From: Escherichia coli
GTDB taxonomy: Bacteria > Pseudomonadota > Gammaproteobacteria > Enterobacterales > Enterobacteriaceae
Length of the DNA: 64,000 nt
Reading direction: 5' to 3' (one strand)
NCBI RefSeq assembly: GCF_050920415.1
Contig: NZ_CP169309.1
Part shown: positions 30,001-33,000 of the stretch, piece after piece
Layout: the number at the start of each line of letters is the position of its first letter
Numbering within the stretch: position 1 is the stretch's first letter
Made by a program: the position numbers

Positions 30001-33000
30001 AGCTGGTGGCTGAATGCACCACCGCAAAATAATGAAATAACGCTGCCTAATACGTTCAGTCAGTCGCTGTACGATGTGCTGATGCATCAGCGAAATCTCG
30101 CCTGGCGGGACAAATTACGCGCTATGCCGCCGGGGCGCTATGTGGTCGCGGTCGGTGCACTACACCTGTATGGAGAAGGGAATTTGCCACAAATGTTGCG
30201 CTAAAAAAATGGCCAATATCGCTATTGGCCCGTCAAAGAGGAATTTCATTTTTTTATTATTATGCCGTCACTTTAAGCGACGGTGTAACTCGATTGTCGC
30301 TCAATCTCACCATCCTGCCAATACTCTTAGGCAAGATGACTCTTTTTTTTGGACCGCCATCAGGCGTATGCTTGCTTCGTTTTTTTGTTTAAGGCAGGAA
30401 AATTACCATGACACCCGCAGTTAAATTACTCGAAAAAAACAAGATTTCGTTTCAAATCCACACCTACGAGCACGATCCGGCTGAAACCAATTTTGGCGAT
30501 GAAGTCGTCAAAAAATTAGGTTTGAATCCGGATCAGGTCTACAAAACGCTGCTGGTGGCAGTGAATGGTGATATGAAACACCTTGCCGTGGCCGTTACGC
30601 CGGTCGCAGGTCAACTGGATCTTAAAAAAGTAGCAAAAGCGCTGGGTGCCAAGAAAGTTGAGATGGCCGATCCGATGGTCGCGCAGCGTTCGACGGGGTA
30701 TCTGGTTGGGGGGATTAGCCCACTGGGGCAGAAAAAGCGTCTGCCAACGATTATCGACGCCCCCGCGCAAGAATTTGCCACTATTTTTGTTTCTGGCGGC
30801 AAGCGCGGGCTGGACATCGAACTGGCGGCAAGCGACCTGGCGAAGATCCTTGATGCCACATTTGCTGATATCGCTCGTCGCGATTAAGTGATGCACACGG
30901 AAGATGAGATGTGGAAAGGATTACAGAGACATTAAGTATCGCTTGTGCAGATGAGATACCGGATATCGCCTTACTTCGGCAAACATCGAGAGAGAAGGTA
31001 TTACATCTGCATTTTGCCAGCGAAGCAGAGAGGTATCGTGAGGAATTCGGGCTGGTGCTGAAAGCACAGCTCGATGAATTTGTTGTTGGCATGCATTCTG
31101 CCGACCCGGTTATCAGGATCGCCAGATTAATATCGCTTGAAGAGATTAACCGCCATCAGGATTTTTTCGAACACTGCGCGAAAGAATATCGTAAGCTGGC
31201 GACAGAGCTTATATTTGCATTGGCTGAACAACTGAATGTTGAGATGGCGGAAAATAACCCGCTAGTTACCTTTGCCCCCTTCAAATGCAACCGTAAGCGA
31301 AAAGGCAAAATGGGAAAGTGGCAGTATTGTTTTCACGGTTTTCATTGTGCATTTGAGAATAAAAAAACAGAGCAAAATATTGAAGTTCCCCTCGCCTACG
31401 GCTTTGATTTCGGCGATCTGGACCCGTATTTTTTTCCGGATTTATCAAATCGACCCCCGACTGGCAGCCTCTGCCAGTGGCTATTTACGATGATTACCAC
31501 GACGGCAGCAGGATCATTCAACAACTGCTGGCGCTGGGAAAGTTAGAAAAAATCCCTTCACCGATCCCACAATACACGGGGGTTGCTGCGGTAGATCGGT
31601 CCAATGTCGACATCGCAAATTTTCGCTCAACACTGGAGAGTCGCCTGCACCGATGTAAATTACGCTGGCTTTTGAAGCGTGTAAAAAATTCACAAAGGAG
31701 CGAAAGATGAAATTTGACCATCTTGTTGATGTTAGCTTCCACAATTTTGTCTTTAACGGAAAATTAGATTTTGTCGAACCGGGGCAAACAATGGCATGGC
31801 TGGAACAAAACTTTGTTGAGCCGGACTCTAAAAATGATATGGGAAATGGTTTTTATATCTGGCTATTTGGCAATGTTGAGTTTCATTTCGAAAGCAACAA
31901 GCTATATATGATTTGGTGCGATTATTTGAGCCAAATCCATTTGGGCAAAGCGATCCGATTTGATAAAGGAATATTGAATAACGTCGCTGAGTTGAACGTT
32001 ACGCGTGTATTTAACATGCTTGTTAACGAAGGCGCTGATCTGCAAATCCGCCGTCAATCGCCCCATACACTATTAATCCACGTCAATCGCTCAGGCGTGA
32101 CACTTTGGTTTGAAGCAGATGAAGAACAGTCTGGTGAACCGCAGAATTATATGCTGATGGCATTTGGTTTGACACATCGCGATTACGATGCAAGATTTCA
32201 ATATTCATAAATGGCGGCGTCATATCATGACGCCGCGACGGGGTTCATTACTGCCAGCTCACCTCACCTTTCGGTTCATAGACACTCACATCCAGCGGCG
32301 AGCTTTTCTGGATATACGCTTTCAGCACTTCGGCATCAATAAAGCCAGTATTCACATAGCCCGGTTTGTTATCCAGACGCGGATAGCCATCACCGCCAGT
32401 GGCATTGAAGTTTAATGTCGCCATACGGTAAGTTTTCGCCGGATCGACCGGTTCGCCTTTGATTTTCAGGTCGTTCAGTTTGCCGTCTTTCGCCACAAAG
32501 CTAACGTTGGCAAATTGCGGATAGGCACCAGAATCAGGCTTCATTTGTGCGACGGCGGTCAGGTAATCAATCACCTCTTTACCGGTCATGTCGGCATACA
32601 CCACCACATTGCCGAATGGCTGCACTTTCAGCACATTTTTATAGCTGATATCACCTGCTTCGATAGAATCACGAATTCCGCCTCCGCTCATCACCGCAAA
32701 GTCGGCACCAGTGCGATCCATTTGTGCTGCCAGAATCAACCGCCCCATATTGGTCTGTACAAAACGCACTTTGCTGCGGTCGCCTTCCAGACGACCATTG
32801 GTTTCGCCTATTTTCACTTCCAGCTGCGCTTTGCCTTTGTTCTGGAAAGGTGATAACAGCGAAATCATTTGCTGGTTTTCGGCGATTTCAGGGGTGTAAA
32901 GCACACGCTCGCTTTTCCCGTCTTCCCAGGTCACTTTCTTCTTCAGGTTTACTGGAATCAACTGGTAGTTGACCATTTTCATTTCGCCGTTGCGAAACTC

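What the first reader, a model, noticed from the sequence alone, without database searches (positions are those of the whole stretch)
31408..31546. Frameshift in the first inserted ORF within a 139-nt two-frame overlap
The frame-2 ORF stops at 31546 while frame 1 is open from 31408 to 31710, and both translations look protein-like across the overlap (...LAYGFDFGDLDPYFF / ...GFIKSTPDWQPLPVAIYDDYHDGSRIIQQLLALGKLEKIP...). The T7 homopolymer at 31429-31435 is a plausible slip site; one extra T would restore a single reading frame. This could be a sequencing or assembly error, a genuine inactivating mutation (decaying cassette), or a slippage-based on/off switch.
Basis: seen in the sequence. Interest (0 to 1): 0.5.

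Follow-up and report, generated by a model that had tools for sequence, protein, structure and literature searches.

The report
One-base deletion breaks an accessory gene
A single T has been lost from a run of eight T's inside an Escherichia accessory gene of unknown function (DUF6896 family), splitting one 266-codon gene into two reading frames. It is a real, inherited but ordinary inactivating mutation, not a sequencing error, a pair of genes or a genetic switch.

Summary
The ORF 30911-31546 and the open frame 31408-31710 are two halves of one DUF6896 gene, split by a T7 run at 31429-31435. Intact alleles carry T8 and encode one 266-aa protein whose stop overlaps the start of the next gene (ATGA).

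- **Census.** Of 5426 complete E. coli genomes, 774 carry this 1.36-kb ybaK-ushA cassette. At least 765 have T8, 3 have T7, 6 are unresolved, and none in the main allele has T9.
- **Family test.** A profile built only from non-Escherichia homologues matches frame A to profile positions 1-176 and frame B to 172-257. The break falls in the invariant LDPYFF-S motif, and the T run is just its codons (TAT TTT TTT TCC).
- **Not an error.** The exact 211-aa frameshift product occurs on 37 contigs. Three separate assemblies, including STEC_7v, are 100% identical to the window across the genes compared.
- **Recent.** Adding one T gives a protein identical to that of E. fergusonii ATCC 35469.

Best reading: a replication-slippage deletion that makes a young pseudogene in a horizontally mobile, low-GC cassette. 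Published reporter data suggest about 5% rescue by RNA-polymerase slippage. Phase variation, programmed frameshifting and two separate genes are not supported. The gene's function remains unknown. Interest is low.

The parts
30888..32247 (+). 1360-bp two-gene accessory cassette between convergent ybaK (30408-30887, +) and ushA (32248-33900, -). K-12 has only a 36-bp hairpin spacer at this position.
   Evidence: Comparison with K-12. The cassette is present in 774 of 5426 complete E. coli genomes. Its GC is 44% against 50-58% in the flanks.
30911..31546 (+). Frameshifted 5' ORF of the DUF6896 gene: 175 native codons (30911-31435), then 36 out-of-frame codons, then TAG (31544-31546).
   Evidence: The GTG start at 30911 is the one PGAP uses for intact alleles. 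The N-terminus aligns with the N-termini of the homologues.
31429..31435 (+). T7 homopolymer, the site of the 1-nt deletion. The ancestral T8 encodes Y173-F174-F175-S176 (TAT TTT TTT TCC) of the invariant LDPYFF(S/T) motif.
31435..31710 (+). Displaced 3' part of the same gene, now in the other frame: native residues 176-266 plus TGA. It is no longer translated from the gene's start. It still holds the conserved residues T182, P187, G199 and E213.
   Evidence: The restored protein is 100% identical to E. fergusonii B7LJF0.
31695..31700 (+). AAGGAG Shine-Dalgarno sequence, 6 nt upstream of the downstream gene's ATG. It allows translation independent of the broken upstream gene.
   Evidence: Sequence read directly.
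31707..32210 (+). Intact downstream gene (167 aa). Its ATG overlaps the native DUF6896 stop (ATGA). The predicted fold is a tandem BLIP-like/DUF4309-like fold. It has no Pfam family.
32214..32236 (.). GC-rich hairpin (10-bp stem, 3-nt loop) closing the cassette just before the ushA stop. It may be a bidirectional terminator that replaces the K-12 spacer hairpin.
   Evidence: Sequence read directly. The terminator scan did not pick it up because there is no T run.

Best explanation
Loss of one T from a T8 run (T8 to T7), most likely by strand slippage during DNA replication, has frameshifted a single 266-codon DUF6896-family gene after codon 175.

**Shown**
- Translation now runs 36 out-of-frame codons and stops at 31546.
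- The last 91 native residues are removed. These include about a third of the Pfam domain (residues 87-215) and many invariant residues.
- Translation of the two genes is uncoupled. In intact alleles the stop and start overlap (ATGA). Here the ribosome stops 160 nt upstream of the next gene.
- The downstream gene keeps its own strong ribosome-binding site and is intact.

**Inferred**
- The product is non-functional, so this is a young pseudogene.
- The mutation is real and inherited clonally in the window's lineage.
- It is recent, because the displaced 3' part carries no further amino-acid change.
- It sits in a horizontally mobile, low-GC accessory cassette that has been damaged in other ways in other lineages.
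- A few percent of full-length protein may still be made, by E. coli RNA polymerase inserting an extra U at the T7 run or by -1 ribosome slippage on U_UUU_UUU.
For: - **Site of the lesion.** T7 against T8 is the only indel between the window and the intact alleles of SK1144 and UTI89. The T8 allele gives one 266-aa ORF.
- **Census.** 774 of 5426 complete E. coli genomes carry the cassette. Exact T8 matches number 656 plus 109. T7 is found in 3: MFDS1022581, O18 and N58.
- **One gene.** The family alignment and the non-Escherichia profile place the frame switch in the invariant LDPYFF motif. Both halves belong to one protein. The AlphaFold model of the restored protein is one compact fold across the break (pLDDT 88, pTM 0.82).
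- **Real.** The exact 211-aa product is on 37 contigs and a 163-aa annotation of it on 12 more. STEC_7v, GCA_048049075 and MFDS1022581 are 100% identical to the window across the genes compared, with T7.
- **Recent.** The restored protein occurs exactly on 582 contigs. It is 100% identical to E. fergusonii B7LJF0.
- **Dispensable.**
  - L009 has T7 plus a 29-bp deletion in gene 2.
  - N96 has T5 to T6 in gene 2.
  - E. albertii copies are cut at about 130 aa.
- **Leak.** E. coli RNA polymerase rescued a 1-nt-deletion reporter to about 5% at T7 and 10% at T8 (PMC6260861).
Against: - No reads were available, so the T7 length in this particular assembly is supported only by agreement among separate assemblies.
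- T7 occurs in at least two allele types and in three divergent chromosomal backgrounds. The tract is therefore a hotspot, or the T7 cassette spreads by recombination. A low-rate switch cannot be excluded on this evidence.
- Loss of function is inferred from conservation, not tested. The gene's function is unknown.
- Six of the 774 genomes were not resolved.
Confidence: 0.85

Rival explanations
1. Sequencing or assembly error: the true genome has T8 and the homopolymer was under-called.
For: Homopolymer length is a classic error of some sequencing platforms. One series of GenBank genomes (248-aa products P0003 and P0004) carries T7 together with A5 in the nearby A6 run. Two homopolymer deletions in one gene look like platform error.
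Against: The identical T7 product occurs on 37 contigs, plus 12 more under another annotation, from NCBI, ENA and Logan assemblies. STEC_7v, GCA_048049075 and MFDS1022581 are 100% identical to the window, with T7, across ybaP, ybaK, the cassette and ushA. copA, ybaP, ybaK, the partner gene, ushA and fsr are all intact in the window.
Confidence: 0.03
2. Phase-variable contingency locus: the T tract flips reversibly between T8 (ON) and T7 or T9 (OFF) at high frequency to switch the gene.
For: - The coding homopolymer is long by E. coli standards.
- T7 is found in two allele types (window type, and UTI89 type in O18 and N58).
- T7 is found in three divergent chromosomal backgrounds.
Against: - At least 765 of 774 complete genomes have T8, only 3 have T7, and none has T9 in the main allele.
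- The three assemblies identical to the window all carry T7, so no flip-flop is seen among them.
- The run is a by-product of codons for the invariant YFFS motif. Synonymous TTC codons break it in Leminorella, Chryseobacterium and Chitinophaga.
- From my own knowledge, not tested here: E. coli has intact mismatch repair, and homopolymer switching of this kind is not a known regulatory mode in it.
Confidence: 0.05
3. Programmed recoding: the T7 arrangement is a functional two-frame gene expressed by -1 ribosomal frameshifting or transcriptional slippage.
For: In the T7 allele the zero frame reads U_UUU_UUU, a formal X_XXY_YYZ heptamer. A -1 slip, or an extra U in the mRNA, would recreate the exact wild-type protein (sequence). 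E. coli RNA polymerase slips detectably at T7.
Against: - The two-frame arrangement is not conserved. About 99% of cassette-bearing genomes and the full-length homologues from other genera aligned here have a single ORF.
- There is no stimulatory structure at the usual 5-9 nt spacing. The only hairpin, at about 31460-31478, lies 24 nt downstream, and the fold z-score is -1.6.
- Any rescue would be an accidental leak of a few percent, not a programme.
Confidence: 0.05
4. Two genuinely separate genes, each with its own start.
For: A GTG at 31477 opens a 77-aa ORF in the second frame.
Against: The second frame matches profile positions 172-257 of a family whose full-length members from other genera are single proteins of 240-285 aa. 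No Shine-Dalgarno sequence precedes GTG 31477. The restored protein models as one fold across the junction.
Confidence: 0.01

Closest known systems
Homopolymer-slippage frameshift pseudogenes in enterobacterial accessory genes
   Same: A single-base loss in a mononucleotide run inside a coding sequence. The ORF is truncated, the lesion is inherited clonally, and other lineages carry different lesions in the same cassette.
   Different: Nothing of substance. The only particular point is that the run is forced by the TTT TTT codons of an invariant Phe-Phe motif.
Slipped-strand phase-variable (contingency) genes of Neisseria, Haemophilus, Campylobacter and Helicobacter
   Same: A coding-region homopolymer whose length decides whether the frame is open.
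   Different: Tract-length polymorphism is rare here (3 T7 against at least 765 T8 of 774, no T9). The three clone-mate assemblies examined all carry T7. Homologues do not preserve the tract. The host has mismatch repair.
Accidental rescue of frameshift alleles by transcriptional slippage (Citrobacter rodentium tssM, PMC4256274; E. coli reporter data, PMC6260861; survey in PMC1088944)
   Same: A run of T's in the sense strand at the frameshift site. Insertion of one extra U would restore the native frame and the exact native protein.
   Different: Known utilised cases mostly have runs of 9 or more. T7 is at the lower limit for E. coli RNA polymerase, with about 5% rescue in a reporter. No product was measured here.
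dnaX-type -1 programmed ribosomal frameshifting (A_AAA_AAG with an upstream SD and a downstream hairpin)
   Same: A formal slippery heptamer (U_UUU_UUU) in the zero frame of the T7 allele.
   Different: There is no correctly spaced stimulator and the arrangement is not conserved. The ancestral state is an ordinary in-frame gene.

Membership tests
DUF6896 (Pfam PF21837) protein family | Significant match to the Pfam HMM | tested here: met
   The restored protein matches at residues 87-215, E 9.8e-14. The contig database also marks the frameshifted 211-aa product as PF21837.
DUF6896 (Pfam PF21837) protein family | Full-length collinearity with family members as a single polypeptide | tested here: met
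   Homologues are 38-59% identical over 85-98% of the length. The split halves map to profile positions 1-176 and 172-257. AFDB50 matches are DUF6896 or uncharacterised proteins.
Phase-variable contingency locus | Simple-sequence tract in the coding region that controls the frame | tested here: met
   T7/T8 run at 31429-31435.
Phase-variable contingency locus | Frequent ON and OFF tract lengths among closely related isolates, in both directions | tested here: not met
   At least 765 T8, 3 T7, 6 unresolved, and no T9 in the main allele among 774 genomes. The three assemblies identical to the window all carry T7.
Phase-variable contingency locus | Tract maintained by selection across homologues | tested here: not met
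   TTC codons break the run in Leminorella, Chryseobacterium and Chitinophaga. It is kept only where the codons are TAT TTT TTT TCN.
Phase-variable contingency locus | Measured high switching rate | not testable with these tools
   Needs a fluctuation assay or deep sequencing of single-colony cultures.
Programmed -1 ribosomal frameshift site | Slippery heptamer X_XXY_YYZ in the zero frame | tested here: met
   U_UUU_UUU, from codons TAT TTT TTT.
Programmed -1 ribosomal frameshift site | Stimulatory hairpin or pseudoknot 5-9 nt downstream | tested here: not met
   The nearest stable hairpin starts 24 nt downstream. The fold z-score is -1.6.
Programmed -1 ribosomal frameshift site | Two-frame arrangement conserved in orthologues | tested here: not met
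   About 99% of E. coli copies and the full-length homologues from other genera are single ORFs.
Toxin-antitoxin or toxin-immunity gene pair (for the two-gene cassette) | Match to a known toxin, antitoxin or defence family | tested here: not met
   No significant PADLOC, NCBIfam or PHROG match. Pfam gives only DUF6896.
Toxin-antitoxin or toxin-immunity gene pair (for the two-gene cassette) | Pairing of the two genes conserved across taxa | tested here: not met
   DUF6896 loci in other genera lack the partner, and partner loci lack DUF6896. There is no conserved neighbour among 72 loci.
Toxin-antitoxin or toxin-immunity gene pair (for the two-gene cassette) | Only one of the two genes (the toxin) can be lost alone | tested here: not met
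   Gene 1 alone is broken in the window. Gene 2 alone is broken in N96. The N96 lesion is itself a homopolymer indel of unverified quality.
BLIP-like / DUF4309-like tandem fold (downstream 167-aa protein) | Structural similarity of the whole chain | tested here: inconclusive

The most novel reading that the evidence does not exclude
The T7 allele is not a dead gene but a heritable 'dimmer'. RNA-polymerase slippage or -1 ribosome slippage on U_UUU_UUU would regenerate the exact wild-type protein at a few percent of normal level. Recurrent T8-to-T7 changes in several Escherichia backgrounds would then be selected as a way to turn down, rather than abolish, a costly accessory gene acquired from another lineage.
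Probability: 0.08. Interest if true: 0.35.

Novelty: new member of a known kind. Interest (0 to 1): 0.15.

Why it matters
There are three modest points.

- **Annotation.** RefSeq annotates the truncated ORF in the matching genome as an ordinary CDS starting at an internal GTG, not as a pseudogene. The T7 products are also clustered as proteins. They should be read as fragments of one 266-aa gene.
- **An uncharacterised cassette.** The cassette is present in about 14% of complete E. coli genomes, including strains labelled ST131 as well as UTI89 and LF82. It is low in GC, less diverged than its flanks, and its first gene belongs to a family found mainly in Bacteroidota. Natural knock-outs such as this one could help in finding a phenotype.
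- **A caution about T runs.** T7 and T8 runs lie at the threshold for E. coli transcriptional slippage, so such 'pseudogenes' may leak.

Tried and rejected
- **Short-query census.** I ran 40-42-nt megablast queries centred on the T run to count T7 and T9 exactly. Both returned nothing, even for the known exact match, probably because the low-complexity filter masks the run. The census therefore rests on 88-90-nt queries and identity bands, and 6 of 774 genomes remain unresolved.
- **Function of the DUF6896 protein.**
  - NCBIfam, PADLOC and PHROGs gave nothing significant for it. The best PDB sequence hit was weak (E 0.024).
  - AFDB50 returned only DUF6896 or uncharacterised proteins.
  - Neighbour clustering over 72 loci found no conserved partner.
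  - No paper in the library mentions DUF6896.
- **Function of the partner protein.** There was no Pfam match, either alone or across 50 homologues. A PDB profile search found nothing. Only a moderate fold resemblance was found.
- **Promoter and terminator scan.** Nothing exceeded the shuffled expectation, and no promoter was found between ybaK and the cassette.
- **Rejected readings.** Two separate genes, a toxin-antitoxin pair and programmed frameshifting are all rejected, for the reasons given in the membership table.

Full report
**Setting**

The window is Escherichia chromosome. The gene order is copA (26477-28981), ybaP (29410-30204), sroB/ChiX sRNA (30203-30286, minus strand), ybaK (30408-30887, plus), ushA (32248-33900, minus) and fsr.

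In K-12 the convergent genes ybaK and ushA are separated by a 36-bp hairpin. Here 1360 bp lie between them (30888-32247), carrying two plus-strand genes. The first, starting at GTG 30911, is annotated in related genomes as a DUF6896 domain protein. The second (31707-32210, 167 aa) is annotated as hypothetical.

The cassette is 44% GC, against 50-58% for its neighbours.

**Checking the observation**

- The ORF from 30911 stops at TAG 31544-31546.
- The other frame is open from 31408 to TGA 31708-31710.
- Positions 31429-31435 are seven T's.

Megablast of the cassette found it in 774 of 5426 complete E. coli genomes. In SK1144 and UTI89 the first gene is a single 801-nt ORF whose TGA overlaps the ATG of the second gene (ATGA). 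In the cassette alignment, the only indel between the window and those two intact alleles is one T in this run, T7 against T8. One extra T does restore a single 266-codon frame.

**Is it one gene?**

Homologues retrieved from 5.8 billion proteins include single ORFs of about 240-285 aa in Leminorella, Flavobacterium, Chryseobacterium, Chitinophaga, Mucilaginibacter and others. They are 38-59% identical over 85-98% of the query.

The frameshift falls in the best-conserved motif of the family, G-x-LDPYFF-(S/T)-x-(F/Y)-I-x-(S/T)-T-P. The invariant or near-invariant residues T182, P187, P189, G199, G210 and E213 lie after the break.

A profile built only from the 36 non-Escherichia sequences matches frame A residues 1-176 to profile positions 1-176 (E 4e-69). 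It matches frame B residues 6-91 to positions 172-257 (E 4e-25).

An AlphaFold model of the restored protein is one compact fold through the junction (pLDDT 88, pTM 0.82). The 'two separate genes' reading is refuted.

**Real mutation or error?**

The exact 211-aa frameshift product is on 37 contigs, and a 163-aa annotation of the same allele is on 12 more. The sources are NCBI, ENA and Logan.

STEC_7v (AEXD01), GCA_048049075 and MFDS1022581 are 100% identical to the window, including T7, across ybaP, ybaK, the cassette and ushA. The neighbouring genes in the window are intact. A one-off homopolymer miscall is therefore very unlikely.

One GenBank series has T7 plus A5 in the nearby A6 run (248-aa products). 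That looks like platform error, and I do not count it as biological.

**How common, and is it a switch?**

| Tract state among the 774 cassette-bearing complete genomes | Genomes |
|---|---|
| Exact 89-nt match, T8, main (SK1144-type) allele | 656 |
| Exact 89-nt match, T8, UTI89-type allele | 109 |
| T7, window-type allele (MFDS1022581) | 1 |
| T7, UTI89-type allele (O18, N58) | 2 |
| T9, main allele | 0 |
| Unresolved | 6 |

In the wider collection, the restored window-type protein occurs exactly on 582 contigs, against about 50 contigs for its T7 derivatives.

T7 is also found with a 99.9% identical cassette in two further chromosomal backgrounds. Their flanks differ from the window by 2-4% and from each other (L007, L009).

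So the change is recurrent, or the T7 cassette moves by recombination. It is nevertheless rare, goes one way only in this sample, and is present in all three assemblies that match the window. That is what a mildly hypermutable run in a dispensable gene would give. It is not what a contingency locus would give.

The run itself is a by-product of the codons TAT TTT TTT TCC for the invariant Y-F-F-S. TTC codons break it in Leminorella, Chryseobacterium and Chitinophaga.

**Consequences**

- The shift follows codon 175. The 36 out-of-frame codons end at a TAG that exists only because of a window-type SNP (G at 31546).
- Ninety-one native residues are lost, including the last third of the Pfam domain (residues 87-215). 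Loss of function is inferred from this, not tested.
- The lesion is recent. The displaced 3' part has no further amino-acid change, and the restored protein is 100% identical to E. fergusonii ATCC 35469 B7LJF0.
- Translational coupling to the downstream gene is lost, because the stop is now 160 nt upstream of it. That gene has its own AAGGAG 6 nt before its ATG and is intact.

**Recoding**

In the T7 allele the zero frame reads U_UUU_UUU. A -1 ribosomal slip, or insertion of one U by RNA polymerase, would recreate the exact native protein.

There is no stimulatory structure at the right distance. The only hairpin starts 24 nt downstream, and the fold z-score is -1.6. The split arrangement is not conserved either. 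This is not programmed.

Published reporter data show E. coli RNA polymerase rescuing a 1-nt deletion to about 5% at T7 and 10% at T8, with nothing detectable below T7 (PMC6260861). Runs used for recoding in bacteria are usually 9 or longer (PMC1088944). A leak of a few percent is therefore plausible but unmeasured.

**What the cassette is**

Function remains unknown.

- *Distribution.* In one genome per species, the family is overwhelmingly in Bacteroidota. E. whittamii and Leminorella are the named enterobacterial hits. It has no conserved neighbour across 72 loci. Conserved C89, H142, H145 and C146 suggest a metal or catalytic site; this is inference only.
- *Pairing.* The two genes were found together only in the Escherichia loci examined. 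Each has been lost alone in some lineage: gene 1 here, and gene 2 in N96 by a T5-to-T6 change. Both are damaged in L009, and gene 1 is truncated in E. albertii. This argues against an addictive toxin-antitoxin pair and for dispensability.

**Verdict**

This is an ordinary, genuine homopolymer frameshift that creates a young pseudogene in a mobile accessory cassette. Interest is low.

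Noticed in passing
window 30888-32247 compared with flanks 29410-30887 and 32248-33900: The cassette is less diverged than its flanking core genes in every comparison. Against B2 strains it is 98.8% identical, with flanks at 96-98%. Against L007 and L009 it is 99.9%, with flanks at 96-98%. Against E. whittamii it is 96.6-97.0%, with flanks at 91-94%. It is also low in GC (44%; partner gene 40%). This suggests it moves between Escherichia lineages and species by recombination.
   Followed up: partly
L018-L089: The DUF6896 family is found overwhelmingly in Bacteroidota (Flavobacterium, Chryseobacterium, Sphingobacterium, Mucilaginibacter, Saprospiraceae). 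Only a few enterobacterial hosts carry it, which hints at an inter-phylum origin for the Escherichia gene. No conserved neighbour was found in 72 loci.
   Followed up: partly
window 31707-32210: The intact 167-aa partner belongs to a sizeable family that is not in Pfam (175 representative clusters). Its confidently predicted tandem BLIP-like/DUF4309-like fold resembles YjgB, YfeY and the T6SS immunity protein TsiN. One homologue is fused to DUF4240. It could be an inhibitor or immunity-type protein.
   Followed up: partly
window 28975-29337: The copA-ybaP spacer is a second variable spot. This 363-bp stretch has no similarity to K-12, which carries ybaQ there. Locus L007 carries a HigB-like toxin gene plus an HTH gene at the same place.
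   Followed up: partly
L001 1706-2197 (window 31055-31546): RefSeq/PGAP annotates the truncated ORF in the identical genome MFDS1022581 as a normal 163-aa CDS starting at an internal GTG. It is not flagged as a pseudogene, so frameshift fragments are circulating as proteins (WP_001355179.1).
   Followed up: yes
L002 (N96), equivalent to window 31849; L009, equivalent to window 32052-32080: The second gene carries independent lesions in other strains. N96 has a T5-to-T6 insertion. L009 has a 29-bp deletion between CGTCAATC direct repeats, and it also has T7 in gene 1.
   Followed up: yes
window 31361-31367: A second slip-prone run (A7, codons AAT AAA AAA ACA) lies in the same gene 62 nt upstream of the T run. 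It is intact here.
   Followed up: no
window 30203-30286 (minus strand): The sroB/ChiX small RNA lies between ybaP and ybaK (Rfam RF00368, 82 bits), as in K-12.
   Followed up: yes
window 30887-30911: Only 23 nt separate the ybaK stop from the DUF6896 GTG start. No promoter or terminator was predicted between them, so the cassette is probably co-transcribed with ybaK.
   Followed up: partly
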